From a virus, in the IMG/VR virus record IMGVR_UViG_3300027852_000007: a stretch of DNA of 59,576 bases; one strand, written 5' to 3'. Shown piece by piece: positions 41,738-59,351 of the stretch. The stretch's first letter is position 1. The number at the start of each line of letters is the position of its first letter. Position numbers and translations under genes: made by a program. The notes beneath the pieces were generated by a model. It saw nothing but the letters and a program-made list of their open reading frames with translations. It was not told the DNA's origin and did not search any database.

Positions 41738-41741
41738 CAGT

Positions 41742-43268: not shown

Positions 43269-45205
43269 TCGAAAATCTCCGTGATTTCACGCACTCGCTG
43301 GGCGTAGTAGCGTGTGTTGAGGGTGGCTCTGTCGATAACGGTGCTGTCGTTGGACACGGTGACGGCCTGGTGTTTGTTGATGCCGATTTCCCGCTCTTTG
43401 TCGGGCGCTTTGGCCAGCGGTGGCATGATTTTAATGAGGCTGACACCATCGGTGCTGACGTAGTACCGCGTAAGGTTCTGTAGGGACTGTTCGTCGTCTT
43501 CGGTGAGTACGTCGCGACAAACCAGACGGCTATCCCGTGGCACTTTGGCGCGCAGGAAGAAGTCGTAATCATCGGGGTGGTGTTCGATGAAGCTGTCAAT
43601 GTCTTCCCCCCTTACCAGACAGGCTTCTGCTGCTCTGGCAACAACCCGCGCTGAGAAGTTTTTGTGCCAGTCGTCGTTGGTTTCATAGTCGTATTCGTAG
43701 ACGCCTTTGTGAGTGATGGAGCCATCGGTCTTGACCGCCAGGTAGTTATTAACGTCGCGCATCCACACGCTGGCGTAGGTGTCGGTCTCAAGGACAAGCC
43801 GGGTGTGTTTCTCCCATTCTGCGCAGACCTTACACACTGTGTCGAGCTGTACTTTGGGCACGCTGTAGGCGATGCCATCGGTATTGACGTTGATCAAGCG
43901 CAGGCCGGGTACTGACATTAGCGCTTCGGCCAGCATACAGAGTAATAACTGCCCGTTGATGGTGATGGAGAGGGTGTACTGGGGATCGTAAAACGGGCTG
44001 TAAACACTGTTCGAATCACCATAGACGCCGTTTAAGGCGAGCTTGAGCATGGCGTTTTCTGCGCTACCTTTGGCGAAGGTTGAGCGCATTTTGTAAACAT
44101 CGGCATAAACCTCACAGAAGCGCTTACCCAGGTGTTCGGGGTGCAGGTTGTTGACGATGGCGAGGTTGGGGTAGTAGGACTTAACGTCGCGTTGTTCGAT
44201 AACGGTTTCATCGTCGGCATGGAAGGCGGTATTGGGTGTGGCCCCATGGAGGCCTCCCACACCGAAGTCGAATTGAAAGCCGTCGATGATGACGTTGAGG
44301 TTTTTAATCTTGCCTTTGACTTTATCGAGGTTAGCGAACGCGGCAACGTCACCCAGGGCGTCTTCTGGTATGCCTGTGAAGGTACCTTTTGTGTTGCTGA
44401 CCACTTGGCGGCGCAACCACTGTTCGATGGCCCTAAACGCAGGGTGACGGAGTTTAACGCTGTCGAGTATGAGGCTGTCGAGTACGATGTGCCCCCGGTG
44501 GGAGGTGGTAATTTTACCGGGGATACCGAGCCGGCGGGACATGTAGTCTTTACCAATTTTGGTGTCGTTGTGGTTGGTGAAGTCGATGCCTTCGGTGCTG
44601 CTCAGTGCGCGCCTGAACGCCACCTTATCACTGCTGATGTGGAAGAAGCGGCGGGTCTGTTCGACATCGTGAGCGTTGTAGCGGATCAGGGTGTCGATCT
44701 CTGAGGGCGTGAGGCGCTTACCCGGCGGGAAGGGCAGGTCTTTAATGGACGTGGCGCGCATGTTGAACTCCAGCTCTTTGAGGCTGGTACTGCGCGCCAC
44801 GTTGTCGAAGTGGTGGATGGCGTAGAGGTCGAGCTGTGTGACAAACTGTTGGTTAGGGTAGATGCGGTGCTTAAAGCGCTCGTTCCACGGGGTGCTGATG
44901 ATAGCCTGACACTTGAGCCAGGCGCGCCCCACGATGGTTTTAGCGGGTGCATCGGAGGGACAGGCCTGTATCAGGGTGTGCAGGATGGGGTAGTCAAAGC
45001 CCAGGTTGTTGAAGCCCACCATGGTAAAACGGTGGCTTGTTTTATCCAGCAGCAGCTTACGCAGGCGGGGCCAGTCGTTGCGACGTTGACTGACCTCTAC
45101 CACTGCGCGCTTGTTGTTCTGTTCGTTAATCAGCACGCAGGTGAAGACGTTGGGGTAGGTCTCAATGTCGTAGGTCAGGTAATGGGGCGTAAGCGGGCTG
45201 GACAT
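43220..45205 (-). CDS. family-B DNA polymerase with 3'-5' exonuclease domain
   Basis: Exo I YDIETYPN, Exo II GFNNLGFDYPIL, Exo III YNAHDV. Polymerase motif A DVKSYYPNL, motif B KLALNGVYG, motif C NVNTDGI. Confidence 0.8.
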   Translation of the reverse strand: MSSPLTPHYLTYDIETYPNVFTCVLINEQNNKRAVVEVSQRRNDWPRLRKLLLDKTSHRFTMVGFNNLGFDYPILHTLIQACPSDAPAKTIVGRAWLKCQAIISTPWNERFKHRIYPNQQFVTQLDLYAIHHFDNVARSTSLKELEFNMRATSIKDLPFPPGKRLTPSEIDTLIRYNAHDVEQTRRFFHISSDKVAFRRALSSTEGIDFTNHNDTKIGKDYMSRRLGIPGKITTSHRGHIVLDSLILDSVKLRHPAFRAIEQWLRRQVVSNTKGTFTGIPEDALGDVAAFANLDKVKGKIKNLNVIIDGFQFDFGVGGLHGATPNTAFHADDETVIEQRDVKSYYPNLAIVNNLHPEHLGKRFCEVYADVYKMRSTFAKGSAENAMLKLALNGVYGDSNSVYSPFYDPQYTLSITINGQLLLCMLAEALMSVPGLRLINVNTDGIAYSVPKVQLDTVCKVCAEWEKHTRLVLETDTYASVWMRDVNNYLAVKTDGSITHKGVYEYDYETNDDWHKNFSARVVARAAEACLVRGEDIDSFIEHHPDDYDFFLRAKVPRDSRLVCRDVLTEDDEQSLQNLTRYYVSTDGVSLIKIMPPLAKAPDKEREIGINKHQAVTVSNDSTVIDRATLNTRYYAQRVREITEIFECASVSDTSTRHCATA

Positions 45206-45789
45206 TAATCTTCGTCGAAGAAGTCGGACTGCTCTTCTGCTTCAGCCTCTTCCAGTTCGTCGAAGTCATCTTCAGGTCGGGTAGATCCGCCCAGGGGGTC
45301 GCCCTTGCGAACACGCTGGATGTTCATCAAGCCGCAGGAGACGCCGCTGTTACCTTTCTGTTGATAACCGAAGGCGTTAAGCGATGCCCGCACGTAGTCG
45401 CCACTGACGAACTCACCACTGTCGAGCATGGGTGTGACCTGTTCATCGACAACACCCACGGGGCGCTCGTTGGAGACGTTCATAAACCAGTGCCCGGCGT
45501 ACTCAGGTGGACGCTCTTCACCTTCGTCGGTAAGTTCGTCGCCATCGCGTAGCGGTGTTTTACGCGCTGACTTAGGCACCTTTTCACCAAATTTATTTTT
45601 AAGGGCGTTGGTGCTGGCCTGTTTAATTGCGGTGATGGTGTTCTTGGCTTTTTTAGGAATTAGCAGTTGTGCGGAATACTGCATCTTGCCGTTAAGGTCG
45701 TTTAACCGGGGCGTAAAAACGTGAAGAAAAGAACAGCGAATATTCTCACTTTTATCGGTGATTAATCGTGTACTCAGTTTTTTTGTCAT
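45205..45789 (-). CDS. phage ssDNA-binding protein (DUF2815 type)
   Basis: ...CSFLHVFTPRLNDLNGKMQYSAQLLIPK...GHWFMNVSNERPVGVVD...SLNAFGYQQKGNSGVSCGLMNIQ matches DUF2815. Acidic C-terminal tail DFDELEEAEAEEQSDFFDED. Confidence 0.75.
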   Translation of the reverse strand: MTKKLSTRLITDKSENIRCSFLHVFTPRLNDLNGKMQYSAQLLIPKKAKNTITAIKQASTNALKNKFGEKVPKSARKTPLRDGDELTDEGEERPPEYAGHWFMNVSNERPVGVVDEQVTPMLDSGEFVSGDYVRASLNAFGYQQKGNSGVSCGLMNIQRVRKGDPLGGSTRPEDDFDELEEAEAEEQSDFFDED

Positions 45790-45963
45790 CGTAACATTCC
45801 TTGTTTTGATGGTTTTAATTTTACTTTTTTACAGTAGTGATGGTGGTTTTACCCTATACCCATAGGTGTTTAAATACGATTGCTACTGACACAAAAGAGG
45901 CTATCAGCAGGATGATTAAAATAAAATCAAAATTTTTAATTTTTAAATCCTCAATTTTTTTAT

Positions 45964-46008
45964 AATTAAAAGTTTATTAATTAAAAGTTTATTAATTAAA
46001 AGTTTACG
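45964..46008. repeat. 15-bp x3 AT-rich tandem repeat (aattaaaagtttatt)
   Basis: Read directly, in the AT-rich gap between the DUF2800 stop and the SSB start. The last unit overlaps the DUF2800 stop. Confidence 0.85.
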
Positions 46009-47224
46009 CAAAGTCTTTAGCAGCACTGGCGTTTAACGCTTCGCCCAAAACGATACCCTCACGCTTATCGCTGTCGGCGACCATGGTGATATTACCTTGT
46101 GGTTTTTCCCATAGCTGTGCAAAAGCGCCGAGCATGGTGGGATCTTTTTCGGCCTTTACGATTTTTTCCAGTTTGGCCAATGAGAGCATTTTGTTTTCAA
46201 AGGTTTTATTTTTATCAAGGTTTGCTTCGACCCATGTCTGAGCCCTTTCGTCGCTTACCCAGCGTCGGTTGGCGGAGCCATAAACCAGTTTGGCACCGGG
46301 TATCTGTTCGCCCTGTTGCAGCAGTGTCATGGCGTGGGCTTTAACACCTTTGACCCAGTTTGTTATGACATCGAGCAAGGGTAGGAGGCTGCCGATCTCA
46401 TCGTGACTCATGTTAAGAGGGTCGCTGCCTGTCAGGGGCTGCTCACCACTTAGCACAGGGTCAATGCTGTCGAACTCTGTGTGCATCAGGCGGATGTTGT
46501 ACTCTGCCAGCGCTTTGCAGGAGCCACGCAGTTTACACCACTGGCATTGCTTCTCGCCGGGTGTGCGTGGAGCATCGGCGGGAAGTGTGGCTTGAGCGGC
46601 TGGCCGCACTACGGTTTCGCCCCACTCCAGCACGTCGGCGATGGGCTGTGTCCAGGTGCCATCGTCACCACTGTGGTGAACCTGTACCCGTGGCGCGTAG
46701 ATATGGATTACCACGGTGGTCAGTTCAGAATAAACCCAACCCAGTTCGTTCCAGGTGCCGAGTGCGTACAGACGGGCTTGTGTGTTGCCTACCGCAGCAA
46801 CGCCGTTGCGCCCGGTCTTGAGGTCGATGACGTGGAGGGTGTCGCCGATAATAACGATGGCGTCGGCGGTGCCGAACTGACCGGGCAGTGTCCAGGGTGA
46901 GAAGTCCACCCGTTGTTCGACAAACAGGGCGCTACCGGGTGTGGCGATACCATAGACGTAGGTCAGATAGCCTTCGACCAGGCTTATCATTTCTTCGTCT
47001 ACAGCGATGTCGGTGATGTCGTCTTCTTCCGCAGCGACGTAGTGCCCATTGTAGGACGCCGTTGTGTTGCCTGTTTCAAGGCATAACTGAGCCAGTTTGT
47101 GTGCAACGGTACCCCAGCGTGCAGCGTGGCCCGCTGTGTCGGGCAGGCCTTCTTCGCCGTTGATGCTACCAGGGCAGTTTAGCCACCGGGCGCTGCCCGA
47201 TGCTGATAGTTTTGCGTGTTCCAT
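46004..47224 (-). CDS. DUF2800 PD-(D/E)xK (Cas4-like) nuclease
   Basis: N-terminus MEHAKLSASGSARWLNCPGS is the DUF2800 signature. A Cys cluster CQWCKLRGSC lies downstream. Occupies the usual DUF2800-DUF2815-polymerase position. Confidence 0.75.
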   Translation of the reverse strand: MEHAKLSASGSARWLNCPGSINGEEGLPDTAGHAARWGTVAHKLAQLCLETGNTTASYNGHYVAAEEDDITDIAVDEEMISLVEGYLTYVYGIATPGSALFVEQRVDFSPWTLPGQFGTADAIVIIGDTLHVIDLKTGRNGVAAVGNTQARLYALGTWNELGWVYSELTTVVIHIYAPRVQVHHSGDDGTWTQPIADVLEWGETVVRPAAQATLPADAPRTPGEKQCQWCKLRGSCKALAEYNIRLMHTEFDSIDPVLSGEQPLTGSDPLNMSHDEIGSLLPLLDVITNWVKGVKAHAMTLLQQGEQIPGAKLVYGSANRRWVSDERAQTWVEANLDKNKTFENKMLSLAKLEKIVKAEKDPTMLGAFAQLWEKPQGNITMVADSDKREGIVLGEALNASAAKDFA

Positions 47225-48036: not shown

Positions 48037-50658
48037 ATGAGTAACCCTTCTACGCCCCCGTCTGCCCCACAAACACAGGATTTCCTTACCCGCGAGGGTG
48101 TCCAGATGCTTAGAGGGGGCTATGACATTGTGCCGATCCGCCCAGGACGGAAGCACCCAGGGATGGATGACTGGCCACAACTGGAGGCGACGGAAGAGGA
48201 TCTTAAACGGTGGAGCCGTAGCGGGTTTGTCGGCGGTGGGGTGGGTGTGAAGGGGGCGTGTTGCCCTGCTGTCGATGTGGATGTGACGGATAAGACGGTG
48301 GTACTGGAGGTGCTGACGCAGGTGGAGGCGACGGTGCTGGGTGACGATGATGCGCCGATGCTGACGCGGGTGGGGCAGGCTCCGAAGTGTCTGGTGCCGT
48401 TCCGCACGGATGCGTCGTTTACGAAGTGTAGTTCGAAGGCGTGGCAGGATATGGCCGGTGATACGCAGCGGCTGGAGATACTGGGCGATGGCCAGCAGTG
48501 GGTGGCGTTCGGTATCCACCCGGTGACACGTAAGCCTTACCGCTGGCGCGGTGGTGCGCGGTGCACGGTGGCGAGTGTGCCTTATGCTCAGTTGCCGGTG
48601 CTGACGGTGAACAAGGCCCAGGCGCTGGTGCGTTGGTTCGACAGGCAGGCGGAGGAGGTGTGGGGCTGGACGAAGCCGGCGGATTGTGAAACCCCCAACA
48701 CGCTACCTGGAGCGACAGGTGAAGGGGGCACACAAAACAGTAAAGCTGGTACGCCACCCGTGGAGTGGGAGGCGGTGTCAGATCTCGACATGGGTGTGAC
48801 GCTGAATCTGATAAAACCCAGTCTATCACACAGTGAGTGGTTAAAGGTAGGCATGGGCTGTTATGCGGCGTGTAAGGGCGACGAGTGGGGCTTTAAGCTG
48901 TGGAACGCATGGAGTGCGCGCTGCCCGGAGAAGTATAACAAGGGGGAGATGCGCAAGCGCTGGCGGTCGTTCGCATCGAACCGTGAGAACCCGGTGTCAT
49001 GGGGCACGGTGCTGCATGTCGCAGGGGTCAGTGCGACGGCGACGGTGAGTGCTGAGCCGGAGGCCGGGGATAACGTGCTGACGATCAGTGATGCGGATCG
49101 ACGCAGGAACCAGCAGAAGCTGAACGCGAGGGATATGGTGAGGCGTGTCGGTGAGTGCGGTGCGGTGGGTGAGCTGATCGACGCGGGGGGATTGTGTGAT
49201 GAGTTGGGTGCGCTGATCCGCGCCAAGGGGCTCAACGCGATGTCGGTACCTATCGTTAGCGATGCGATACGTGAGCAGTACCACAAGCTGTCGGGTTCTC
49301 GCTTGCCAGTGGCGGTGTTGCGCGATGCGATTACCCCTAAGCCAGGGCGGGGTGAGGATGAGCAGTATGAGGATGATGTTAAGCCGTGGCTGGATGCGCC
49401 TGACTGGTGCAAGCCGTGGATAATGTTGCACGACAGCATGGTGAATGTGAAGAGTCGGGAGCGTATGTCGCCAGGGGCGTTTAATGTCGCTCAGGGCTTC
49501 CGGGTGCCTGATCCGTCGGGTACGGGCAATAAGCAATCGGCGATGAAGTATGTTGCCAATGGGGGTTACATTCAGGTGGTGTCTGGTGAGGCGTATTTAC
49601 CCTGGTGTGAGGACAGGCTGACGGTACTCGATGGCATGTCTGTGCTGAACACGTACTGGCATGAGGGTGTGCCGGCGGCTAAACCGTGGGATGAGACGGA
49701 CACGGATGCGGCGGATGATATTGCGTTTGTGAAGCAACATTTCGTGCAGATGCTGGGCGAGGATGAAGCTAAGATTATGCTGTCGTGGATGGCGTGGCAG
49801 GTGCAGCGACCCGGTGAGCTGCTGAAGTGGGCACCGATCCTGTGCGGGGAGCAGGGCGTGGGTAAGTCGTATATCGAGGTGCTGATGACGGCGGTGATGG
49901 GCATCGGCAATGTGGGTGTGGTTACTTCCCGCGATGTGACGAGCACGTACACGGGGTGGTCAACCGGACGGGCCGTGAATGTAATACAGGAACTGCGAGT
50001 GTTGGGACATAACCGTTATGAGGCGATGGAGGCCTTGAAGTCGGTGATTACTGACCCGGCGGTGGTGGTGCGGCGGATGCGGGAGAATTCGTTTGTGACG
50101 CGCAATACCTGCAACTATATCGGCATGACTAACCACTTCGATACGCTGCCGATACCACGGGACGACCGGCGGTGGTGGGCGCTGCGGGCACAACGACCGT
50201 CGGCTGCGATGGGTGAGGCTGCCCCGGCGTATTATGATCGACTCTTTTCTATCATCGACAAGCGCACGGGTGAGCTGCGCCACTGGTTAGCTGAGCACGA
50301 TATACCAGCGGCGTTTGTGCAGCAGAAGACGGCGCCTTACTCTGAGCTGAAGGGGCAGATGATAGCGACGGAGGTGGCCAGCCATTACGGGATGGATGAG
50401 GCTATGGTGCTGCTGGCAGAGGGCGGCGAGGGTTACTGCACGGCGGCGTTCGATGCGCTGCGTTTGCGCATGGCTTTGAATGAAGCATTGGGTGAGGTTA
50501 ATGCGCTTACAGCCAGGGAGTGCACGACGCTGTTCAAGAAGCTGGGCTATATGCGTCATGCTAAGTCGGTGCGGGTGGACGGCATGGTGTGCAAGGTGTG
50601 GACGAAGGGTGTTATGTCGAACGCGGAGGTTAGGGCTTGTTTGCAGAGTGAGGATTAG
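48037..50658 (+). CDS. bifunctional primase-polymerase / PriCT-2 / SF3 (VirE/D5-type) helicase
   Basis: N-terminal prim-pol pattern GYDIVPIRPGRKHPGMDDWPQ...AVDVDV. PriCT-2-like SHSEWLKVGMGCYAACKGDEWGFKLWNAWSARCPEKYNKGEMRKRWRSF. Walker A CGEQGVGKS. I use ATG 48037 (AAAGGA upstream) rather than the track start at 47878. Confidence 0.85.
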   Translation: MSNPSTPPSAPQTQDFLTREGVQMLRGGYDIVPIRPGRKHPGMDDWPQLEATEEDLKRWSRSGFVGGGVGVKGACCPAVDVDVTDKTVVLEVLTQVEATVLGDDDAPMLTRVGQAPKCLVPFRTDASFTKCSSKAWQDMAGDTQRLEILGDGQQWVAFGIHPVTRKPYRWRGGARCTVASVPYAQLPVLTVNKAQALVRWFDRQAEEVWGWTKPADCETPNTLPGATGEGGTQNSKAGTPPVEWEAVSDLDMGVTLNLIKPSLSHSEWLKVGMGCYAACKGDEWGFKLWNAWSARCPEKYNKGEMRKRWRSFASNRENPVSWGTVLHVAGVSATATVSAEPEAGDNVLTISDADRRRNQQKLNARDMVRRVGECGAVGELIDAGGLCDELGALIRAKGLNAMSVPIVSDAIREQYHKLSGSRLPVAVLRDAITPKPGRGEDEQYEDDVKPWLDAPDWCKPWIMLHDSMVNVKSRERMSPGAFNVAQGFRVPDPSGTGNKQSAMKYVANGGYIQVVSGEAYLPWCEDRLTVLDGMSVLNTYWHEGVPAAKPWDETDTDAADDIAFVKQHFVQMLGEDEAKIMLSWMAWQVQRPGELLKWAPILCGEQGVGKSYIEVLMTAVMGIGNVGVVTSRDVTSTYTGWSTGRAVNVIQELRVLGHNRYEAMEALKSVITDPAVVVRRMRENSFVTRNTCNYIGMTNHFDTLPIPRDDRRWWALRAQRPSAAMGEAAPAYYDRLFSIIDKRTGELRHWLAEHDIPAAFVQQKTAPYSELKGQMIATEVASHYGMDEAMVLLAEGGEGYCTAAFDALRLRMALNEALGEVNALTARECTTLFKKLGYMRHAKSVRVDGMVCKVWTKGVMSNAEVRACLQSED

Positions 50659-51092
50659 GTGAACAGATCAGGGTTCGCACGCACGAAGGCGGCGCGTTTT
50701 TCCATGACGATTGCCAGGGCTTCTTCGAGTGTACGATTATCGCCATATTTGGCGTTGTGTGTTTTCCGCTTCCCGTTGTTGAGGTTGATGGTGCTACGCA
50801 CGAAGCGGTATGTGCGCGTGGTGCCGTCCTTGTTGGTGCGGGTATCGACACAGGGGCAGACGCCAACGGGAAAGCCCTGCACTGCATTTGCTGATTTTTG
50901 CAGCTTGTGTGCACCGGGTAGCAGGACGGCTTGACGCAGGCTTAGCATCGCATCGCGCCACGCTTGCGCAGCACTGAGCGTGTGGAAATATTGTTGTAGT
51001 TCTTCGCCTGTTTCTGGGTCGGCAACGGCAACGCGGAAATTGGTGTCGCTGTATTGACGAATGTTGTGTTCATTTTGTAAGCCGTTTAACAT
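50655..51092 (-). CDS. AP2-like DNA-binding protein (paralog of 37892-38338)
   Basis: NFRVAVADPETGEELQQYFHTLSAAQAWRDAM follows the AP2 pattern. A second half has a conserved C-terminal helix shared with the paralog. Confidence 0.5.
   Translation of the reverse strand: MLNGLQNEHNIRQYSDTNFRVAVADPETGEELQQYFHTLSAAQAWRDAMLSLRQAVLLPGAHKLQKSANAVQGFPVGVCPCVDTRTNKDGTTRTYRFVRSTINLNNGKRKTHNAKYGDNRTLEEALAIVMEKRAAFVRANPDLFT
51033..51074. repeat. 42-bp direct repeat, copy A (inside the 5' end of the AP2-like gene)
   Basis: gcggaaattggtgtcgctgtattgacgaatgttgtgttcatt matches 51556-51597 at 40/42 positions. Confidence 0.9.
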
Positions 51093-51247: not shown

Positions 51248-51549
51248 CAATCCCACCATTCACAATCATGGTTGCAGCGCTCTATACCTTCTTGCATTCT
51301 TTCTAGTGCTGACTTCCATAAACTTCTGGTATCAAACCCATTATATTGGCTTTCAACTAATTCATGCACACCCTCATCCCAATGATGATTTTTAGGGGCC
51401 ATAACCAGCACCTCAAATGAGGTGTAAGTTTTATTTATTTCAACCTCTGCTCCTAATGCTTTGGCTAGTTCTAAAACCTCTTGCTTTGCTGTGATAACTA
51501 TCACCTGTTCTGTTAATGTAAATACATTATAACGCGTTACGCGTAACAA
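51247..51549 (-). CDS. hypothetical protein in the repeat-flanked insert (start uncertain)
   Basis: 100-aa ORF in AT-rich sequence. The track's TTG start lies upstream of the predicted promoter, so a downstream start such as GTG 51504 is more likely. Confidence 0.45.
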   Translation of the reverse strand: MLRVTRYNVFTLTEQVIVITAKQEVLELAKALGAEVEINKTYTSFEVLVMAPKNHHWDEGVHELVESQYNGFDTRSLWKSALERMQEGIERCNHDCEWWD

Positions 51550-51555: not shown

Positions 51556-51597
51556 GCGGAAATTGGTGTCGCTGTATCGGCGAATGTTGTGTTCATT
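51556..51597. repeat. 42-bp direct repeat, copy B (orphan fragment of the AP2-like 5' coding region)
   Basis: On the minus strand it encodes NEHNIRRYSDTNFR, which corresponds to codons 7-20 of the AP2-like gene, but has no start codon. Confidence 0.9.
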
Positions 51598-51790
51598 GTT
51601 CTGCCATCGACGCGAGAAGCATCATCATTTGCCCTTCGTCAGCAATGACCATTTCATCTTCACCATTGGGTGACTCATCGATTTTCTTTTGTATGAAGGC
51701 TTCGGCCTTATCGCCAAACACTGCGCTCAGTTTTTTGTAGGTGCCAAGCGTGGACGGATCGCCAGTTGATAGTAGTTTCAAGGGTGTCAT
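51593..51790 (-). CDS. hypothetical early protein
   Basis: 65 aa with ATGA overlap to the upstream gene. Confidence 0.5.
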   Translation of the reverse strand: MTPLKLLSTGDPSTLGTYKKLSAVFGDKAEAFIQKKIDESPNGEDEMVIADEGQMMMLLASMAEQ

Positions 51791-52882: not shown

Positions 52883-53407
52883 TCAATGATTCCTTTGGTT
52901 AGTCCACTGCTGCGCCCAGGTCGTGTAACCGCCTGCATCGGTCACGCTCTTGAAACCGGGCAGCGGATCTTTAGCCCAGAATTGGCGCGTAGCCATGGCG
53001 AGGGTGAAGAGGTGGCAAGTGGACGCGCTGATAGCGTCGAGGGTTTGCAGCATAGAGAGCCTGTCAATACTCCACGTTTCCAGCTCTGCACAGCCTGTGC
53101 TGATTTCACCACGCAGGCCAAACACCATGGATTCGAAGGCACTGGCGATGTTGACGCTATCCGGCGTTTTGAATTCGGTCATTTGCGCCCCACCGTTGAG
53201 TATGTCGCAGCAAAATAGCAACTCGTTCGGCAACATATCTAGCTTGTTGTTCTGACAAACCAGCACGCAAAACTGAATAGCGAGGTTGGCAGAGGAGGAC
53301 AGGGTGAGGTCGATGTCTTCACCATGCTGGCCCCCGATGACGCCCAGGGTGTTGAGCGTTTCGGGAGCCAGGTAGAGTGAGAGTTTGCGGGGTTTTGGAT
53401 TAGTCAT
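52883..53407 (-). CDS. hypothetical early protein
   Basis: 174 aa. No motif recognised. Confidence 0.55.
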   Translation of the reverse strand: MTNPKPRKLSLYLAPETLNTLGVIGGQHGEDIDLTLSSSANLAIQFCVLVCQNNKLDMLPNELLFCCDILNGGAQMTEFKTPDSVNIASAFESMVFGLRGEISTGCAELETWSIDRLSMLQTLDAISASTCHLFTLAMATRQFWAKDPLPGFKSVTDAGGYTTWAQQWTNQRNH

Positions 53408-53413
53408 TCGGGG

Positions 53414-54391
53414 TTAGCTCCAGGTGGTGGTGTAGTTGTAGGCGTTGGCCAATACTTTCAGCTCTGCCAGATAAGGCGTGGCTCTACCGGGGTGATCGCG
53501 CACGATGGTTTCTAGTTCTTGTGGTGTCAGCTCTGCCTTGATGCTGATACCGAAACTGTCGCAAAACGCGGCGATGCCAGGCTTGCAAAACCCTAGCTTG
53601 CGACACTCTGCCCAGTCGATGAGCTGGCCAGTCAGCTTGAGATGCTGTTTACGCATCTTGTTATGCAGCTCATGCAGCAGTGAGTGCTTATCTGTGCTGT
53701 GGTACGTGGTACCCATGGGGGCCGTTATCACGTAGTCAATATGTGTGCCTAGCAGGGTGCGGGAGTAAATAGAGTAGCCCCGGCGCGTGCTGATCAGCTT
53801 AGCGTCGTAGGCGCTCTTGAGTCGTATGCTCAGAGGTAATTTCGACTTAACAGGCTTGATGATGCCAGCTTCGAGCGCCGCTGCGTACACGTAGTCACCA
53901 CGCCAGCCCGGTATCTGCTGATTAATGATTTTCGGTTTGCCGCGAAACATGCGGGCAAAGCGTACATAGCGTGTGGTTGTGATTTTCGGCCCGTATCTAT
54001 TGTGCCAGCCTTTTGAATAGACGCCCCACTGTTTTTCTTCATGCTCCACAGTGCAGTAGAACCACGGGCCTAGCCGTTTGAATGATGTTGAGTGGCTGGG
54101 CAGGCCTAACATGCTGCGGGGGCTGCCATCGCGCTGATCGTTTTCACTATGCGCAGCTTCGAGGCAACGCATCATGTAGTGATATTTGCGCTCCCACGCT
54201 GCCGGATAGTAGCGGAAAGGGGAGTTTTGACTGTTAATGTTGCCGATGACTTGCCGGTGGTAGGACTGCTTGCGACGCTGTAGCGCCTCCTGTAGTTCGC
54301 GCACGGCGACAACACCAGGGCGACCACTTGCGTCAAATTCGAGACGTTCTTTAATTGAGGTTAGTGCTTGGTATTCTGTTAGTGCTGACAT
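53414..54391 (-). CDS. hypothetical early protein
   Basis: 325 aa, preceded by the conserved GGAGCACTAGATATG initiation motif. No family recognised. Confidence 0.6.
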   Translation of the reverse strand: MSALTEYQALTSIKERLEFDASGRPGVVAVRELQEALQRRKQSYHRQVIGNINSQNSPFRYYPAAWERKYHYMMRCLEAAHSENDQRDGSPRSMLGLPSHSTSFKRLGPWFYCTVEHEEKQWGVYSKGWHNRYGPKITTTRYVRFARMFRGKPKIINQQIPGWRGDYVYAAALEAGIIKPVKSKLPLSIRLKSAYDAKLISTRRGYSIYSRTLLGTHIDYVITAPMGTTYHSTDKHSLLHELHNKMRKQHLKLTGQLIDWAECRKLGFCKPGIAAFCDSFGISIKAELTPQELETIVRDHPGRATPYLAELKVLANAYNYTTTWS

Positions 54392-54592
54392 ATCTAGTGC
54401 TCCGTGCGTCGTGCCGTCTGGCCGCGCTTGTGTGAGTGTGTTGTGCTGGCATTGCGCCAGGGTTTTTACTCTATCTAATTTCGCTCATTGGTTCAAGCGG
54501 GCAGCGATGACCGCTCATCGCCGCCTGCTCTGCTGCACAATATTATGGCCCTCCGATGGCTTTTAACGCTGCCTGCTTTTTTGATTCGTTCA

Positions 54593-54814
54593 TTATCTAG
54601 TGCTCCCAATCCCGACGCCGTAACGCTGCATCAGTGCGCTTGCCGCGCTGCGCATCGGTTCCACCATGTATTCGAGCAAATGCTCAGCATGTGTTGATGT
54701 CACCTCGTTGTAGATTGTTTCACGGTCAGTACCGTAGTGATCAGCTATTGAACCCAGGATCTCGCCTTTAGTTTTTGCATCCAATATATCTAAAAATGCT
54801 TTGTTGGTGTTCAT
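54593..54814 (-). CDS. hypothetical early protein
   Basis: 73 aa, preceded by TGGAGCACTAGATATG. Confidence 0.55.
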   Translation of the reverse strand: MNTNKAFLDILDAKTKGEILGSIADHYGTDRETIYNEVTSTHAEHLLEYMVEPMRSAASALMQRYGVGIGSTR

Positions 54815-54847: not shown

Positions 54848-55261
54848 TTATTCGCCGAAGTAGTGTTGTTGTGCGTAAATTGTGAGTGCTGCCTTGTCAT
54901 CGCTAGTCAAGTCGACTAAATCAGTCCATGGTGTAAACCAGTCCTGATATTGTATGCGTGCGTCAGATGCTTGGTTGTGTTCGTCCAGGTCGCCAACGAT
55001 GCGAACTGCCGGGCCACCTGTACATAGCAGGATCTCGTACTCTGCTGCCTCGCTACTTCCGCCGGGCGGGTACCAGCCTGAGCGCACTTGAACTGATAAT
55101 GCGTTCTCGTTGATGCGCTGTAGTGCTGCGTCGTGCTCATCATCGCCGTGTGCGTTGTGCATGTCTTCCACCATCTCGACAATGCTGTCGAGTTGTGCGC
55201 GGGCTTGTTCGAGTGCTTGCTCGAGTGCTTGCTTGTTGTCGCTTTCGTTCGTTTTAGTCAT
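54848..55261 (-). CDS. acidic hypothetical early protein
   Basis: 137 aa, preceded by TGGAGCACTAGGCATG. Contains SGWYPPGG...EYEILLCTGGPAVRIVGDLDE...QDWFTPW. Confidence 0.55.
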   Translation of the reverse strand: MTKTNESDNKQALEQALEQARAQLDSIVEMVEDMHNAHGDDEHDAALQRINENALSVQVRSGWYPPGGSSEAAEYEILLCTGGPAVRIVGDLDEHNQASDARIQYQDWFTPWTDLVDLTSDDKAALTIYAQQHYFGE

Positions 55262-55305
55262 GCCTAGTGCTCCAGGGTTGCAACGTTTGAGTGGTCATTA
55301 TACAC

Positions 55306-55340
55306 CAATACTATCAATACTATCAATACTATCAATACTT
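55306..55340. repeat. 9-bp x4 tandem repeat (caatactat), each unit carrying an AATAC half-site
   Basis: Read directly. Immediately upstream (in the minus sense) of the gene starting at 55261. Confidence 0.85.
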
Positions 55341-55383
55341 TATTTTTAATAAATCGGGCACCAGGCCGGCCCTTTTCGACAGT

Positions 55384-55855
55384 TTGTAACTGAAAATGGC
55401 AATTTGTAACTAAACTCCACCAAGTTCAGTTACACTTAAGTTGTTGATTTATAAGGATAAAATAAATTATGTAACTGTTGTAACTGTCTTGTAACTGACT
55501 TTGGTTACACGCCAAGTCATTGATTTATAAGGATAAATTTGTAAATTTGGTTAGGTTTTTTACTGTAACTGACTTTATTCCACGGTGTACAGATTTATAT
55601 AATATATATAATAAGCACGTAATATATTATGTGTATAGCTGGCTGGTGGAAGAAAGTCAGTTACAACAGTTACAGCGCTATTTTTTGCTGATTTTCTTAA
55701 TAAAATCAATGACTTACGGTGTAACTAAACTTGGTTACACGTCAGTTACAACAGTTACAAAAAATAAAATATGTATATAAATCAGAGGGTTAAGTGTAAC
55801 TGAACTCAGTTACACTCAGTTACACTCAGTTACACTCAGTTACACTCAGTTACAC
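55384..55855. other. Iteron-dense, AT-rich origin-of-replication-like region
   Basis: About 20 copies of a GTTAC(A)/(T)GTAAC core in both orientations, including tcagttacac x5 in tandem (55806-55855), cagttacaacagttaca x2 and tgtaactg x3. There is also a roughly 50-bp AT-only stretch (55591-55640) and an 18-bp direct repeat ttgatttataaggataaa (55444-55461 and 55520-55537). Confidence 0.6.
55806..55855. repeat. 10-bp x5 perfect tandem iterons (tcagttacac)
   Basis: Read directly. Confidence 0.95.
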
Positions 55856-55924
55856 TCGAGGGAGAAAGGCGTGGGGACTGTGGGAGGTGGCCAGCCCTTG
55901 GAGAGCTGACCAGGCCAGGTGGTG

Positions 55925-56350
55925 TTAGTGACTGTCAAATACGTGGTACTTGCCGAGTTCCAGCTCTTCACTGTCGTAACTGTTGAAGTGATTCCCGTAT
56001 CCGTCTGAGCTGCTATAAATCTCTGCCAGCGTTTCTATGTGTTCTTTTGTCATCGCTTCGCCTATCTTCTCGTATGCTTCGCCTGCTTGCGCCGCTTCAA
56101 TGATTTCGAGCGGCCAGTCTGTTGCGTCAGCGATTGCCCAAGCAGTGAAGCAGCCCAGCGTGTAGGCATCGCTCCCGATCTCTTCAGCTAGTACGCTGTC
56201 GATTACGTCGGCGTGGATGAAGCGCACATTGTCGATGGTGAAGTCCTGCTCATCACCACTGACGGCCTCGTACACTTCCTCATAATCTGGTGTGCTAAAT
56301 AAATTGTTGCAAAATTCTTTTACTTGCGCGATAGTATGTGCTTTTGACAT
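55925..56350 (-). CDS. strongly acidic first gene of the leftward early operon (141 aa)
   Basis: ATG 56350 is preceded by TGGAGCAGCACATAATG. I count about 30 D/E against 6 K/R. The C-terminus ...GKYHVFDSH faintly recalls ArdA-type endings. Confidence 0.55.
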   Translation of the reverse strand: MSKAHTIAQVKEFCNNLFSTPDYEEVYEAVSGDEQDFTIDNVRFIHADVIDSVLAEEIGSDAYTLGCFTAWAIADATDWPLEIIEAAQAGEAYEKIGEAMTKEHIETLAEIYSSSDGYGNHFNSYDSEELELGKYHVFDSH

Positions 56351-56750
56351 TATGTGCTGCTCCAGGTTTTGTTCCGAGTGACCATTATCCCAAACCCCGG
56401 CGGAGAATTGAAGCAGATATGTGTTGTATGTATAGTATGTGTTGGAATTTAAGACCAACGGTGTACTGAGGGTATGTTGAAAGGTAGGGATACTCTACGT
56501 TTGAGGGGTTTTTATGGCCAGAGTGAGGTATCAGAATACAAGCGTTAAGGCGATAGTCCGGGCTGTTGATGGCGGAACTAGGGAATATACAAGCTACCCA
56601 TTCAGCGGTAGGCGCTTTACTGTAAGGGATAGGCCGGGCAGACCAGGCGGCGATGCTGGCAGGCAGTACAGCGGGCCGGGGAGTAAGCCTGAGCGGGGAT
56701 AGGCAAGGCTGGGGCTGCGTGTTCCCGAAAGCCAGAAGCAAAAGCAAGGT

Positions 56751-56858
56751 CAAGAGCAAGAGCATTTAATGCCTGACGGCTTGCGCCGTCTCTGTTCATA
56801 CAAGCAAGAGCAAGAGCATTTAATGCCTGACGGCTTGCGCCGTCTCTGTTCATACAAG
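56751..56858. repeat. 54-bp x2 perfect tandem repeat, each unit with a gacggc-ttgc-gccgtc hairpin and a gcatt-t-aatgc inverted repeat
   Basis: caagagcaagagcatttaatgcctgacggcttgcgccgtctctgttcatacaag occurs at 56751-56804 and 56805-56858. Confidence 0.9.
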
Positions 56859-56872
56859 CAAGGTCAAGAGCA

Positions 56873-56973
56873 AAGCCCCCGCCTTCTTTTTAGGTACCAT
56901 ATTTCAGTTTTCAAATGTAGTCACATGTTTTCTGGTCGGTTTTCACTTCGTCAGGTAAAGAAGGCGGGGGCTT
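56873..56973. repeat. 17-bp perfect inverted repeat separated by 67 nt
   Basis: aagcccccgccttcttt (56873-56889) and aaagaaggcgggggctt (56957-56973). Confidence 0.9.
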
Positions 56974-56993
56974 GGGTCTCTATATATACACCA

Positions 56994-57134
56994 CTTAATC
57001 GGTCACACTCCTTTGAACTGAGAAGTTATCCCCTTCAATACTTAATCAGTCACACTCCTTTGAACTGAGAAGTTATCCCCTTCAACACTTAATCAGTCAC
57101 GCTCCTTTGAACTGAGAAGTTATTCCCTTTCTGC
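56994..57134. repeat. 47-bp x3 tandem direct repeats about 140 nt upstream of the TerS-like gene
   Basis: cttaatc(g/a)gtcac(a/g)ctcctttgaactgagaagttat(c/t)ccc... starts at 56994, 57041 and 57088. Each unit has TCAGT-N13-ACTGA. Confidence 0.9.
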
Positions 57135-57180
57135 GCCATAACCATCAGTTATACCAAGAAACCGTATAGCGGTATTGATA

Positions 57181-57192
57181 AATACAAGTATT
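57181..57192. promoter_or_regulatory. AATACAAGTATT palindromic site, preceded by TTGATA, upstream of the TerS-like gene
   Basis: Perfect 12-mer. TTGATA, an 18-nt spacer and TACGAT would place the site inside a promoter spacer. Confidence 0.55.
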
Positions 57193-57274
57193 GACCAATA
57201 CGATGATTGGTGGCAGCCTTCGACGTAATCTGAAAAAAATTTGAAAAAAATTTCTGTCTGAGGAAACCCCTTCT

Positions 57275-58222
57275 ATGCCGCGCTCCAACCATCACGGGCC
57301 AAAAGCCTCTGACCCTATCGCCGATCTCTTTCTTGATGCCAACGCTCTGGTGGATGAGAACCATGAGGAAATTATCCGACAAAGGATGCCGGAGAAGGGC
57401 AACACGCTGAAGCCGATGGTGGTGGATACCAGCAATATGTCGCAGATCGAGTGGGTACCGGAGGAGGAGCTTGAGGCTATGGCGGCGGATTATGTCGAGC
57501 GAATCAATCAGTGCCATGCCCGTAAGCAGTATGACGAGGCCGTGGAACTAGTAATCAAGATGATGGGTGAAGGCATACATTTCGCAAAGATTAAGGCGCG
57601 CATCCCCGAAGTGGAGTTGATTATCAGACTGCGAAGAACCAGGGATGAGAACTTCGGTAGACGTATGAGCATGGTGCGCACCCGCTGTTCGGCCATCGTC
57701 TATCGTCGCAAGAACTTAGCCCAGTCGAGGACTGTCAAGAATGTCACAGGTCAGCATATCCATTATGGGATGGTCTTATATGATCAGACCATCGCCGATA
57801 TTATTTGCTACTCGGTGGTTGAGGGGGAGCTGGTGTCGAAGGTGATTGAGGGTCTGGGCATGAGTCGTAAGGCACTCGATAACTGGGTGACTCATGTCCC
57901 CGCTTTTGCCGACCAACTGGCCACCGCGAGGAAGACCGCAGCCGACGCTCATGTCGATCACGCTTTTGAGATTATTGACAACGCAGATGTGGATTCAAAA
58001 GCGGGTGTTTTGAAGGCCAAAATTCAGAGCGAATTACGCATGAAATATGCGGCCCTCGTTCACCGTGCAAGATACGGTGATAATCGCCACCTCACAGTCA
58101 GTGGAAAAGTCGATCACGTCGCTGTCCTCAATAATGCGAGGAAGAACGTGGAATCGAAGCGTGAGGCACTTATTAGCAAGATTGACGGCGAGGTGGTACC
58201 TATGCCGCCCCTTGGTGACTAA
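57275..58222 (+). CDS. terminase small subunit-like protein (HTH) with an N-terminal extension
   Basis: IADIICYSVVEGELVSKVIEGLGMSRKALDNWVTHVPAFADQLATARKTAADAHVDHAFEIIDN...SELRMKYAALVHRARYGD follows the common TerS layout: HTH, helical core, then the ...kYGD motif. Confidence 0.45.
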   Translation: MPRSNHHGPKASDPIADLFLDANALVDENHEEIIRQRMPEKGNTLKPMVVDTSNMSQIEWVPEEELEAMAADYVERINQCHARKQYDEAVELVIKMMGEGIHFAKIKARIPEVELIIRLRRTRDENFGRRMSMVRTRCSAIVYRRKNLAQSRTVKNVTGQHIHYGMVLYDQTIADIICYSVVEGELVSKVIEGLGMSRKALDNWVTHVPAFADQLATARKTAADAHVDHAFEIIDNADVDSKAGVLKAKIQSELRMKYAALVHRARYGDNRHLTVSGKVDHVAVLNNARKNVESKREALISKIDGEVVPMPPLGD

Positions 58223-58541: not shown

Positions 58542-58603
58542 TTTTTGTACATGCCATAGCTGGTGACACTATGGCATGACACCAGCTATGGCATGTACAA
58601 AAA
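58542..58603. promoter_or_regulatory. Perfect 24-bp-arm palindrome (14-nt spacer) upstream of RepL-like B, with extra CTATGGCAT-type sites nearby
   Basis: tttttgtacatgccatagctggtg-acactatggcatga-caccagctatggcatgtacaaaaa. Further atggcatag and gtgccat sites lie at 58651-58680. Confidence 0.75.
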
Positions 58604-58739: not shown

Positions 58740-59351
58740 ATGGAAAATAAAAATAAAAATAAAACGCATGAACTTGAACAGCAGGTCAATCATCTTAGGG
58801 AATTGCTGAATGATGAGAGAGAACAAAACAGAGCAACCAAAAACAAAGTAAACGGCGGATATTACATGACCAGTCGAAAGGCGGAAAAAAGCTTGAGGAT
58901 CTTACAGCAGGAAAGCCCTGTTGGAAGTCTTGTTTTCAGTGTGCTTCGAGAACATATGAAGATCGGTACCAACGCGGTGACAATATCAAGTCCTACACTG
59001 GCAAAAATATTGAACAAATCACTACGCACCATTGCTCGGGCCATCAAACACTTGCTCGACAATTGTTATGTTCAAATCATCAAAACCGGCAACACAAACA
59101 CTTACGTGATCAACGAACAAATTTCTTTTGCGGGTACAGCAGGACAGAGGAAGGCAGTTTTTTCTGCAACCATTGTTGCCCATGAAGATGAGCAGGAGGA
59201 GGGGTGGGAAAAGGTAAAAACACTAAAGACCACAACTTCACCGATTGACCGCAGAGCATCAGATAATCGTGCACAAGCGAGGAACATGAATCGAAAGCAC
59301 TCTGCTGATGACACAAAGCATGACACCCTGTGGCACGCTACCACGCCATGA
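58740..59351 (+). CDS. RepL-like winged-helix protein, copy B (replication initiator or regulator candidate)
   Basis: ...VGSLVFSVLREHMKIGTNAVTISSPTLAKILNKSLRTIARAIKHLLDNCYVQIIKTGNTNTYVINEQISFAG fits the RepL pattern. AT-rich gene. Confidence 0.5.
   Translation: MENKNKNKTHELEQQVNHLRELLNDEREQNRATKNKVNGGYYMTSRKAEKSLRILQQESPVGSLVFSVLREHMKIGTNAVTISSPTLAKILNKSLRTIARAIKHLLDNCYVQIIKTGNTNTYVINEQISFAGTAGQRKAVFSATIVAHEDEQEEGWEKVKTLKTTTSPIDRRASDNRAQARNMNRKHSADDTKHDTLWHATTP

What the first reader, a model, noticed from the sequence alone, without database searches (positions are those of the whole stretch)
55306..55856. Iteron-dense AT-rich region with about 20 GTTAC-core sites: candidate origin of replication
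Between two early genes lies a 660-bp non-coding AT-rich stretch. It has about 20 copies of a (T)GTAAC / GTTAC(A) core in both orientations, where roughly one would be expected by chance. These include five perfect tandem 10-mers tcagttacac (55806-55855), two copies of cagttacaacagttaca and three closely spaced tgtaactg. There is also an almost pure A/T stretch (55591-55640) that could act as an unwinding element, an 18-bp direct repeat (55444-55461 and 55520-55537) and four tandem caatactat units (55306-55340). This is the classic iteron-plus-unwinding-element layout of plasmid and phage origins. The binding protein is unknown. Candidates in this genome are the primase-helicase, the two AP2-like proteins, the tandem-HTH protein and the RepL-like proteins.
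Basis: partly seen in the sequence, partly recalled or inferred. Interest (0 to 1): 0.65.

Follow-up and report, generated by a model that had tools for sequence, protein, structure and literature searches.

The report
Phage replication origin with GTTACA iterons
A 660-bp gene-free stretch in an uncultured marine phage carries 20 copies of a six-letter word in two opposed sets around an AT-rich centre, which is the layout of the replication origins used by self-loading primase-helicases, so it is very probably this phage's origin: a new example of a known kind.

Summary
The intergenic stretch 55262-55924 (36.5% GC against 53.6% for the window) has 20 GTTACA/TGTAAC hexamers. The other 58.9 kb has 17, never more than 2 per 700 bp.

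The sites form two opposed sets with mirror-image spacing around an 82% AT core (55591-55640).

In a 90-95% identical phage from another metagenome, none of 31 listed substitutions falls in a hexamer (P about 0.001).

The same layout occurs in 38 of 117 viral contigs found with a GTTACA-triplet pattern, against 1 of 120 for a control word. In at least 18 of them it abuts the 3' end of an SF3 primase-helicase gene.

Five relatives sharing the C-terminal domain of the window's primase-helicase (48037-50658) each have an iteron array directly 3' of that gene, with related cores (GTTACA, GTTACC, GGTTCA). That domain models as a winged helix.

This is the architecture published for SaPI origins and annotated for phage P4. 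The origin reading is supported, and the primase-helicase is the most likely binder.

In this phage the array lies 4.7 kb from the helicase gene. The CAATACTAT repeats form a strong promoter rather than origin sites. Everything here is computational. Verdict: new member of a known kind.

The parts
55262..55924 (.). Whole non-coding stretch (663 bp, 36.5% GC) that holds the candidate origin and one promoter
   Evidence: the gene calls of the ENA contig leave the same gap
55385..55569 (.). Left iteron set of 8 hexamers. TGTAAC at 55385, 55405, 55470, 55479, 55490 and 55564. GTTACA at 55429 and 55504.
   Evidence: none of the X2 variant's substitutions falls in a hexamer
55570..55659 (.). Central spacer between the innermost opposed iterons (69% AT). 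Its core 55591-55640 is 82% AT and is the predicted unwinding element and centre of the dyad.
   Evidence: only AT-type indels occur here in the X2 variant
55660..55854 (.). Right iteron set of 12 hexamers. GTTACA at 55660, 55669, 55734, 55745, 55754, 55809, 55819, 55829, 55839 and 55849. TGTAAC at 55720 and 55795.
55804..55857 (+). Five perfect tandem 10-bp units (ACTCAGTTAC, i.e. TCAGTTACAC), one helical turn apart, at the outer right edge. This part differs in the X2 relative.
55437..55449 (-). Match to the IHF consensus WATCAANNNNTTR inside the repeat AAGTTGTTGATTT (left copy 1)
   Evidence: consensus match only
55513..55525 (-). Match to the IHF consensus inside the repeat AAGTCATTGATTT (left copy 2)
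55704..55716 (+). Match to the IHF consensus, an inverted copy of the same repeat on the right of the centre
55297..55326 (-). Sigma-70-type promoter (-35 TTGATA at 55326-55321, 18-nt spacer, -10 TATAAT at 55302-55297) for the 137-aa gene 54848-55261 and the genes after it. It is built from the CAATACTAT repeats (55306-55339).
48037..50658 (+). SF3 primase-helicase (Prim-Pol, PriCT_2, DUF5906), the proposed initiator. Its 3' end is 4.7 kb from the array.
50134..50655 (+). C-terminal domain of the primase-helicase (residues 700-873), the proposed iteron-binding winged helix
   Evidence: 202 homologues, all at the C-termini of primase-helicases. AF2 model has pLDDT 84.9. Fold matches are all winged-helix proteins but weak, best E 0.04.

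Best explanation
The stretch 55380-55860 is the phage's origin of replication, of the kind used by self-loading SF3 primase-helicases (the SaPI Rep / P4 alpha type).

Proposed mechanism, all of it inferred:

1. The C-terminal winged-helix domain of the phage primase-helicase (48037-50658) binds the GTTACA hexamers. These lie in two opposed sets on either side of the AT-rich core.
2. One helicase ring assembles on each side. The DNA between them (55591-55640) melts without DnaA.
3. The Prim-Pol domain of the same protein primes synthesis. The phage DNA polymerase (43220-45205) and its Enc34-type single-strand-binding protein (45205-45789) extend the primers.
4. Host IHF may bend the DNA at three symmetric sites.

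What the data show:

- the site array and its symmetry;
- selection on the hexamers in a natural variant;
- the link between such arrays and SF3 primase-helicase genes;
- cognate arrays next to the genes of relatives.

Binding, melting and origin firing are inferred.
For: 1. **Enrichment.** There are 20 hexamers in 663 bp against 17 in the other 58.9 kb, about a 100-fold enrichment.
2. **Symmetry.** The array has dyad symmetry around an 82% AT core.
3. **Conservation.** Over 55333-55800 in the 90-95% identical phage of run X2, none of 31 listed substitutions falls in the 15 hexamers (P about 0.0013). The AT core changes only by AT-type indels.
4. **Recurrence in viral contigs.**
   - A GTTACA-triplet scan returned 117 loci. 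Of these, 38 have at least 8 sites, with at least 3 in each orientation, in a segment usually more AT-rich than its locus.
   - A control hexamer gave 1 of 120.
   - Among the 40 such arrays (the 38, plus L032 and the window), 24 have an SF3 primase-helicase within 5 kb, and a further locus (L157) has a weak, truncated VapE-like match.
   - In 18 a large ORF ends -105 to +186 bp from the array. The ones checked are SF3 primase-helicases of several families: DUF927, VapE/BT4734, D5_N/DUF5906 and DnaG-Toprim fusions.
5. **Recurrence in cellular genomes.** Of 120 loci, 18 have mixed arrays and 9 of those have such a helicase nearby.
6. **Relatives.** The window's C-terminal domain has 202 homologues, all at primase-helicase C-termini. 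Five were looked up (28-38% identical), four with this phage's DUF2800 next to the gene and two with its polymerase and SSB as well. Each has an array in both orientations around an AT-rich centre directly 3' of the gene. The cores are GTTACA (L417), TTGTTACC (L418), AGTTACCT (L419), CTGTTACC (L420) and AGGTTCATAG (L421).
7. **Structure.** The domain models with confidence (pLDDT 84.9) as helices followed by a beta-hairpin. All its top fold matches are winged-helix DNA binders, such as the Cdt1 C-terminal domain, Fur, BlaI and PadR.
8. **Literature and P4.** The literature states that SaPI origins are 6-12 penta- or hexanucleotide iterons 3' of rep. Half lie on each side of an AT-rich region, with at least two on each side pointing in opposite directions. 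They are bound by the winged-helix C-terminal domain of the SF3 helicase, which melts the origin without ATP (PMC9371898). In P4 the annotated ori lies 2.1 kb from the alpha gene. It has 8-bp iterons in both orientations plus three tandem 10-bp repeats. So an origin away from the helicase gene has a precedent.
9. **No DnaA boxes.** None with up to one mismatch lies in 55000-57400.
Against: - The array is not next to the primase-helicase gene. It lies 4.7 kb from the gene's 3' end, across about ten minus-strand genes, whereas all five relatives examined have it directly 3'.
- GC skew gives no origin signal. The + strand is G-rich almost everywhere whatever the gene direction, and the cumulative skew has no turning point at 55.6 kb.
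- Fold matches of the C-terminal domain are weak (best E 0.04, none at or below 0.001). Sequence searches find no similarity to SaPI Rep or P4 alpha.
- The C-terminal domains of other helicase families that sit next to GTTACA arrays are not detectably similar to this one. So the hexamer is not tied to one recognisable domain, and a different, unseen binder cannot be excluded.
- The phage also has a ParA-like gene with an RHH-like partner and no repeat array beside them.
- There is no experimental or read-depth evidence. Only assembled contigs were available.
Confidence: 0.66

Rival explanations
1. The array is an operator or regulatory array. Some other phage DNA-binding protein (an HTH, AP2-like or RHH protein) coats the GTTACA sites to control early transcription through this intergenic region. 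Replication starts elsewhere.
For: - The stretch lies inside a minus-strand gene cluster, directly upstream of the strongest promoter of the area (55326 to 55297).
- Two weaker promoter-like matches lie inside the array, and GTTACA itself resembles a -35 hexamer.
- The 10-bp tandem units would place a protein on one face of the helix.
- The binder is not established.
Against: - The nearest hexamer is 59 bp upstream of the -35, so the strong promoter is not covered.
- The recurring partner of such arrays in other contigs is an SF3 primase-helicase gene. No regulator family was shared between the window and the other array loci.
- An AT-rich core flanked by opposed sets is not needed for an operator.
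Confidence: 0.13
2. The array is a partition centromere. The RHH-like protein (41679-42020) binds the short repeats, and the ParA-like ATPase (40726-41463) then segregates an episomal prophage.
For: - The phage encodes a ParA-like ATPase followed by a protein with a weak RHH match (E 0.006, below Pfam's cut-off). No repeat array lies beside these genes.
- From general knowledge, centromeres bound by RHH proteins are arrays of short repeats in direct and inverted orientation, often one helical turn apart. The five 10-bp units fit that pattern.
Against: - No homologue of the ParA-like or RHH-like protein was found in the 39 other GTTACA-array loci, whereas 24 of the 40 arrays (the window's included) have SF3 primase-helicases nearby.
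- The array is 14 kb from the par genes.
- The central AT-rich core and the cognate arrays next to related primase-helicases are not explained.
Confidence: 0.08
3. The array is a packaging recognition (pac) site. The small terminase (57275-58222) binds hexamers flanking a cut site, as described for P1 pac (recalled from memory, not checked here).
For: - The array is 1.4 kb upstream of terS.
- In four other loci a GTTACA array lies just upstream of terminase genes (L131, L154, L157, L158).
- Matches to the IHF consensus are present.
Against: - The terminase families differ between those loci: Terminase_2, T4-type TerL and Sf6-type here.
- In L157 the array also follows what looks like the 3' end of a VapE-like helicase (weak match), so it may simply sit at the border between the replication and packaging modules.
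- Most arrays are far from any terminase gene, for example L417.
- A second repeat-rich zone (56460-57270) lies directly in front of terS and is the better pac candidate.
Confidence: 0.05

Closest known systems
Replication origins of Staphylococcus aureus pathogenicity islands (SaPI ori, bound by the Rep or PriRep SF3 self-loading helicase)
   Same: - Both use short hexanucleotide iterons.
- Both have two sets on either side of an AT-rich centre, with at least two iterons on each side pointing in opposite directions.
- Both elements encode an SF3 helicase, fused to or paired with a primase, with a C-terminal winged-helix domain.
- Neither has DnaA boxes (PMC9371898).
   Different: - There are 20 sites here against 6-12 in SaPIs.
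- The array is not immediately 3' of the helicase gene in this phage, although it is in relatives.
- No sequence similarity to SaPI Rep was found.
- The host is probably a marine proteobacterium rather than a staphylococcus.
Phage P4 ori and crr with the alpha primase-helicase
   Same: - Both have 8-bp-class iterons in both orientations (P4: TGTTCACC, whose core resembles GTTAC and GTTCA).
- Both have a set of tandem 10-bp repeats at one edge of the ori.
- In both the ori lies kilobases from the primase-helicase gene.
- In both the initiator is a primase, SF3 helicase and C-terminal DNA-binding domain in one chain (the DNA-binding role of the alpha C-terminus is from general knowledge).
   Different: - P4 needs a second cluster (crr) directly 3' of alpha. 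The window has no second cluster.
- P4 alpha and the window protein show no BLAST similarity.
- The primase domains differ: Prim-Pol here. P4 alpha's type was not tested here.
Iteron origins of theta plasmids (Rep-type initiators, such as pSC101, R6K, F and P1 oriR) and lambda ori
   Same: Both have repeated initiator sites next to an AT-rich unwinding element, with possible IHF sites.
   Different: [quoted passage not shown] They come with DnaA boxes and an adjacent rep gene.
- Here the sites are 6-10 bp, in both orientations, on both sides, and without DnaA boxes.

Membership tests
SaPI-type origin (self-loading SF3 helicase origin) | Multiple short (5-6 nt) iterons | tested here: met
   There are 20 GTTACA/TGTAAC hexamers in 55385-55854.
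SaPI-type origin (self-loading SF3 helicase origin) | AT-rich region near the centre, with at least two iterons on each side pointing in opposite directions | tested here: met
   The left set has 6 of 8 sites as TGTAAC and the right set has 10 of 12 as GTTACA. The core 55591-55640 is 82% AT and the spacings are mirrored.
SaPI-type origin (self-loading SF3 helicase origin) | Located immediately 3' of the helicase (rep) reading frame | tested here: not met
   The array is 4.7 kb from the 3' end of 48037-50658 and nothing iteron-like lies directly 3' of it. The feature is met in all five relatives examined.
SaPI-type origin (self-loading SF3 helicase origin) | The element encodes an SF3 helicase with a C-terminal winged-helix domain | tested here: inconclusive
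   The SF3 domain is clear (DUF5906, and a match to the NrS-1 primase-helicase). The C-terminal domain models well (pLDDT 84.9) and its fold matches are all winged-helix proteins, but the best E is 0.04.
SaPI-type origin (self-loading SF3 helicase origin) | The helicase binds the iterons specifically and melts the origin without ATP | not testable with these tools
   This needs EMSA, footprinting and permanganate probing.
SaPI-type origin (self-loading SF3 helicase origin) | The helicase is homologous to SaPI Rep or PriRep | tested here: not met
   phmmer against all PDB chain sequences at E up to 1 hit only the NrS-1 primase.
P4 alpha / ori-crr replicon | Short iterons in both orientations at an ori that lies away from the primase-helicase gene | tested here: met
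   Window. P4 record.
P4 alpha / ori-crr replicon | A second cis-required iteron cluster (crr) directly 3' of the primase-helicase gene | tested here: not met
   No second cluster exists: at most 2 hexamers per 700 bp elsewhere. Only a single palindrome, GTTACGCGTAAC, lies at 51536-51547.
P4 alpha / ori-crr replicon | The initiator is homologous to P4 alpha | tested here: not met
   BLASTP of the window protein against P4 alpha gave no hit better than E 2.3.
Classical iteron plasmid origin (Rep initiator) | 17-22-bp direct iterons on one side of an AT-rich region, with DnaA boxes | tested here: not met
   The units are 6-10 bp, in both orientations and on both sides. No DnaA box with up to one mismatch lies in 55000-57400.
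Type Ib partition centromere (ParA with an RHH protein) | Repeat array adjacent to, and usually upstream of, the parA operon and bound by the RHH partner | tested here: not met
   The array is 14 kb from the ParA-like gene. There are no non-coding repeats by the par genes. The RHH match is below Pfam's cut-off. Binding was not testable.

The most novel reading that the evidence does not exclude
GTTAC-core hexamer arrays in two opposed sets around an AT-rich centre may be a very widespread origin class. Several SF3 primase-helicase families with no detectable similarity between their C-terminal domains would share it, across phages and mobile elements of many bacterial phyla. P4's TGTTCACC and the GTTACC and GGTTCA variants would be relatives. 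That would mean one of two things: an ancient, conserved mode of recognising this word that sequence comparison no longer detects, or a shared factor not yet identified. This phage would be a case where the origin has moved away from its helicase gene.
Probability: 0.3. Interest if true: 0.65.

Novelty: new member of a known kind. Interest (0 to 1): 0.45.

Why it matters
**For this genome.** It gives an uncultured marine phage a specific, testable origin and a specific initiator. It also explains a conspicuous repeat field that would otherwise remain unannotated.

**For annotation more widely.** The survey yields a simple rule: look for opposed sets of a short word around an AT-rich core, usually at the 3' end of an SF3 primase-helicase gene. 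The rule found candidate origins in dozens of viral and cellular contigs. The cores change with the helicase's C-terminal domain (GTTACA, GTTACC, GGTTCA), so origin and initiator can be paired by computation.

**For further study.** This phage shows that the origin can be separated from the helicase gene, so searches limited to the gene's 3' flank will miss some origins. If the shared GTTAC core across unrelated C-terminal domains is real, it raises an open question about how these helicases recognise DNA.

Tried and rejected
- **DNA similarity.** Searches of the region against deposited phages (near and distant modes) found nothing.
- **Close relatives in IMG/VR.** Searches with the neighbouring 325-aa and 141-aa proteins found none. 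The 137-aa protein found two distant AT-rich phages. There the gene also follows a repeat-rich non-coding stretch, but with another word (CTTATAG).
- **Single 17-mer scan.** Almost all hits were chance, except L032.
- **Control hexamer.**
Only the fraction of loci with arrays in both orientations separated the two scans.
  - Some of the control arrays also lie near primase-helicases like the window's, so the control was not entirely neutral.
- **Homology search.** The word-indexed search with the helicase C-terminal half gave one hit. The exhaustive HMMER search was needed.
- **Structure and profile search.**
  - The single-sequence structure prediction failed (pLDDT 36).
- **RNA and terminator checks.**
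  - Rfam found no RNA family in 54.5-59.6 kb.
  - The G+C-rich hairpin at 55346-55372 folds no better than shuffled sequence, so it was rejected as a terminator.
- **GC skew.** It gave no origin signal.
- **Read depth.** Run X1 is available only as contigs, so no marker-frequency reading was possible.
- **Literature.** Two key SaPI papers (PMC1964853, PMC3804134) are not held. Searches for GTTACA or TGTAAC iterons found nothing relevant.
- **Other C-terminal domains.** Profile comparisons with three other helicase families were negative.
Full report
**What the window is**

The 59,576-bp window has a 127-bp terminal overlap, so it is an assembled circle. The same phage is an ENA marine-metagenome contig. 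It is very abundant in one marine run, with a word depth of about 650.

No deposited phage matches it at the DNA level. Its large terminase is at most 49% identical to known ones.

- **Plus strand.** Genes run from terS (57275-58222) round through the structural genes to about 36.7 kb.
- **Replication genes.**
  - On the minus strand lie a 661-aa ORF shared with relatives and read as the DNA polymerase (43220-45205, no Pfam match), an Enc34-type SSB (45205-45789) and a DUF2800 nuclease (46004-47224).
  - On the plus strand, diverging from them, lies a Prim-Pol/PriCT_2/DUF5906 SF3 primase-helicase (48037-50658).
- **Small genes.** A run of small minus-strand genes fills 50.7-56.35 kb.

**Checking the observation**

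The stretch 55262-55924 has no plausible gene. It is 36.5% GC against 53.6% for the window.

It holds 12 GTTACA and 8 TGTAAC hexamers. The rest of the window holds 17, with no more than 2 in any 700 bp. The extended consensus is (t/a)cAGTTACA(a/c).

Two points need correcting:

- The central stretch 55591-55640 is 82% AT, not nearly pure AT.
- The four CAATACTAT units are the -35 region of a near-consensus sigma-70-type promoter (TTGATA-18-TATAAT) on the minus strand. It drives the 137-aa gene 54848-55261.

**Anatomy**

The array is a dyad.

- **Left of the centre.** Six of eight sites read TGTAAC.
- **Right of the centre.** Ten of twelve read GTTACA.
- **Spacing.** The inner modules mirror each other: 9, 11, 14 bp on the left and 14, 11, 9 bp on the right. 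The innermost opposed sites (55564 and 55660) are 96 bp apart and bracket the AT-rich core.
- **Outer right edge.** Five perfect 10-bp units stand one helical turn apart.
- **A second repeat.** AAGTCATTGATTT occurs twice on the left and once, inverted, on the right. Each copy matches the IHF consensus WATCAANNNNTTR. Four of the window's six matches lie in this stretch, against 1.5 expected for the whole window. This is a consensus match only.
- **DnaA boxes.** None with up to one mismatch lies within 55.0-57.4 kb.

**Selection on the sites**

A second marine run (X2) holds a phage 90-95% identical over this stretch. Over 55333-55800 its contigs show 31 listed substitutions, and none lies in the 15 hexamers (P about 0.0013).

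The AT-rich core differs only by small AT-type indels. The five-unit tandem array differs more. So the hexamers are under constraint and the spacers are not.

**The same array elsewhere**

- **Viral contigs.**
  - In 38 of them there are at least 8 sites within 700 bp, with at least 3 in each orientation. Nearly always the segment is more AT-rich than its surroundings.
  - A control scan with the reversed word ACATTG gave 1 of 120.
- **Layout.** The arrays share one pattern: doublets or triplets 9-10 bp apart, an AT-rich 'tatata' centre of 60-90 bp, then the inverted sets.
- **Neighbouring genes.**
  - Clustering the neighbours showed that 24 of the 40 such arrays have an SF3 primase-helicase within 5 kb. 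The 40 are the 38, plus L032 and the window.
  - In 18 a large ORF ends between -105 and +186 bp from the array.
- **Helicase families.** These helicases belong to several families:
  - DUF927 with a Cch-type HTH;
  - BT4734_N/PriCT_2/VapE;
  - D5_N/DUF5906;
  - DnaG-Toprim fusions;
  - Prim-Pol/AAA_25.
- **Arrays near terminase genes.** Some remaining arrays sit at the border between the replication and packaging modules, just upstream of terminase genes. In one of these (L157) the array also follows what looks like the 3' end of a VapE-like helicase, on a weak match.
- **Cellular genomes.** Of 120 loci, 18 carry such arrays and 9 of those have an SF3 helicase nearby. The taxa range from Clostridia to Bacteroidota, Alpha- and Betaproteobacteria, and one bin labelled archaeal.

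**Relatives of this phage's initiator**

The last 174 residues of the window's primase-helicase have 202 homologues in an exhaustive search. All lie at the C-terminus of primase-helicases that are mostly 700-900 aa long.

I fetched the contigs of the five best complete relatives, which are 28-38% identical in this domain. Four have a DUF2800 gene next to the primase-helicase gene, and two also have this phage's polymerase and SSB. In every one, an array in both orientations around an AT-rich centre starts directly 3' of the gene:

| Locus | Iteron | Copies |
|---|---|---|
| L417 | GTTACA | 7 |
| L418 | TTGTTACC | several (fewest of the five) |
| L419 | AGTTACCT | about 8 |
| L420 | CTGTTACC | about 11 |
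| L421 | AGGTTCATAG | 15 |

The word therefore drifts with the protein while the layout and position stay the same. That is the pattern expected of an initiator and its cognate origin.

With an alignment of these domains, AlphaFold gives a confident model (pLDDT 84.9, above 93 over the last 90 residues). The model has helices followed by a beta-hairpin. The fold matches in the PDB are all winged-helix DNA binders but weak, with a best E of 0.04.

**Comparison with what is known**

A 2022 paper on SaPI helicases summarises the SaPI origin as follows (PMC9371898):

- It has 6-12 penta- or hexanucleotide iterons immediately downstream of rep.
- An AT-rich region lies near the centre, with half the iterons on each side.
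- At least two iterons on each side point in opposite directions.
- The winged-helix C-terminal domain of the SF3 helicase recognises them. The helicase loads itself and melts the origin without ATP.

The window's array meets the first three features. It does not meet 'immediately downstream of rep'.

The annotated P4 genome provides the precedent for that exception:

- Its ori has TGTTCACC iterons in both orientations plus three tandem 10-bp repeats, and lies 2.1 kb from the alpha gene.
- A second cluster, crr, abuts the gene's 3' end.

The window has no second cluster. Only a lone palindrome, GTTACGCGTAAC, lies at 51536-51547 in the stretch 3' of the primase gene.

Neither SaPI Rep nor P4 alpha is detectably similar in sequence to the window's protein. 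So this origin works like those systems but is not a member of either family by descent that I can show.

One possible explanation of the displacement is that the unit 'origin plus downstream operon' is inverted relative to the helicase gene. In relatives the genes after the origin are transcribed away from it. Here the promoter at 55326-55297 also fires away from the origin, but towards the helicase gene. This is inference only.

**Rival readings**

- **Operator array.** The strong promoter is not covered by sites, and no regulator family travels with such arrays.
- **Partition centromere.** The phage has a ParA-like gene and a weak RHH-like partner with no array beside them. But neither protein has homologues in the other array loci, and the AT-rich core is left unexplained.
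- **Packaging site.** The terminase families next to arrays differ, and most arrays are far from terminase genes. A better pac candidate lies directly upstream of terS at 56460-57270.

**What remains unexplained**

- The C-terminal domains of the other helicase families that sit next to GTTACA arrays show no similarity to this one. Yet the hexamer is the same.
- GC skew is positive on the + strand almost throughout, whatever the gene direction, and gives no origin signal.

**Verdict**

The origin interpretation is supported by the layout, by site conservation and by comparative evidence. The primase-helicase is the best candidate binder. The feature is a new member of a known kind of origin, unusual in lying away from its helicase gene. 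No step of the mechanism has been shown experimentally.

Noticed in passing
window 56460-57270: A second repeat-rich non-coding zone lies between the 141-aa gene and terS. It has a 54-bp unit x2.3 (56751-56872), a 47-bp unit x2.9 (56992-57129) and a 23-nt inverted repeat (56867-56889 and 56957-56979). Contig word depth in run X1 is 2-5 times higher here than in the flanks. It may be a pac region or a divergent promoter zone.
   Followed up: partly
window 40726-42020: A ParA-like ATPase (40726-41463) is followed by a DUF7352 protein (41414-41737) and a protein with an (E/R/K) repeat and a weak ribbon-helix-helix match (41679-42020). This looks like a partition module, but no non-coding repeat array lies beside it. 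It hints at a plasmid-like prophage state.
   Followed up: partly
whole window: The + strand is G-rich almost everywhere (GC skew +0.04 to +0.27), including where the genes are on the minus strand (36.7-47.2 kb and 50.7-55.3 kb). The cumulative skew rises steadily without a turning point.
   Followed up: partly
Viral-contig loci L059-L175 and genome-contig loci L296-L415: GTTACA arrays in both orientations around an AT-rich centre are common: 38 of 117 viral loci and 18 of 120 cellular loci found with the triplet pattern. They usually abut the 3' end of SF3 primase-helicase genes of several families whose C-terminal domains are not detectably alike.
   Followed up: partly
control loci L176-L295 (for example L240, L199, L243, L209, L227): The control word ACATTG also forms tandem triplets downstream of primase-helicases related to the window's, in 11 control loci. 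Most are in one orientation. In L227 the unit is GTTACATTG, which contains both words.
   Followed up: no
window 51033-51078, 51556-51600 and 51536-51547: A 45-bp direct repeat, which looks like a duplicated gene start, brackets about 520 bp downstream of the primase-helicase gene. Inside it lies a lone palindrome GTTACGCGTAAC. The 96%-identical relative L416 lacks this segment. The palindrome could be a remnant of an origin next to the gene.
   Followed up: partly
window 58542-58603: A 27-nt inverted repeat (96% complementary, 8-nt loop) lies upstream of the RepL/DnaD-like gene 58740-59351. It could be an operator, a terminator or another replication element.
   Followed up: no
window 45790-46004: The most AT-rich 60 bp of the genome (5 G+C, starting at 45912) and a TTTATTAATTAAAAG unit x3.3 lie between the SSB and DUF2800 genes.
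   Followed up: no
window 53146-54808: The related phage in run X2 skips 1661 bp here, so it lacks the 325-aa gene 53414-54391 and its neighbour. It keeps the iteron region.
   Followed up: no
L056 700-1370 and L057 4950-5990: Two AT-rich phages with a 38-39% identical homologue of the 137-aa protein also have a long non-coding stretch before that gene, just after the end of a preceding gene not identified here. The stretch has repeated CTTATAG words instead of GTTACA.
   Followed up: no
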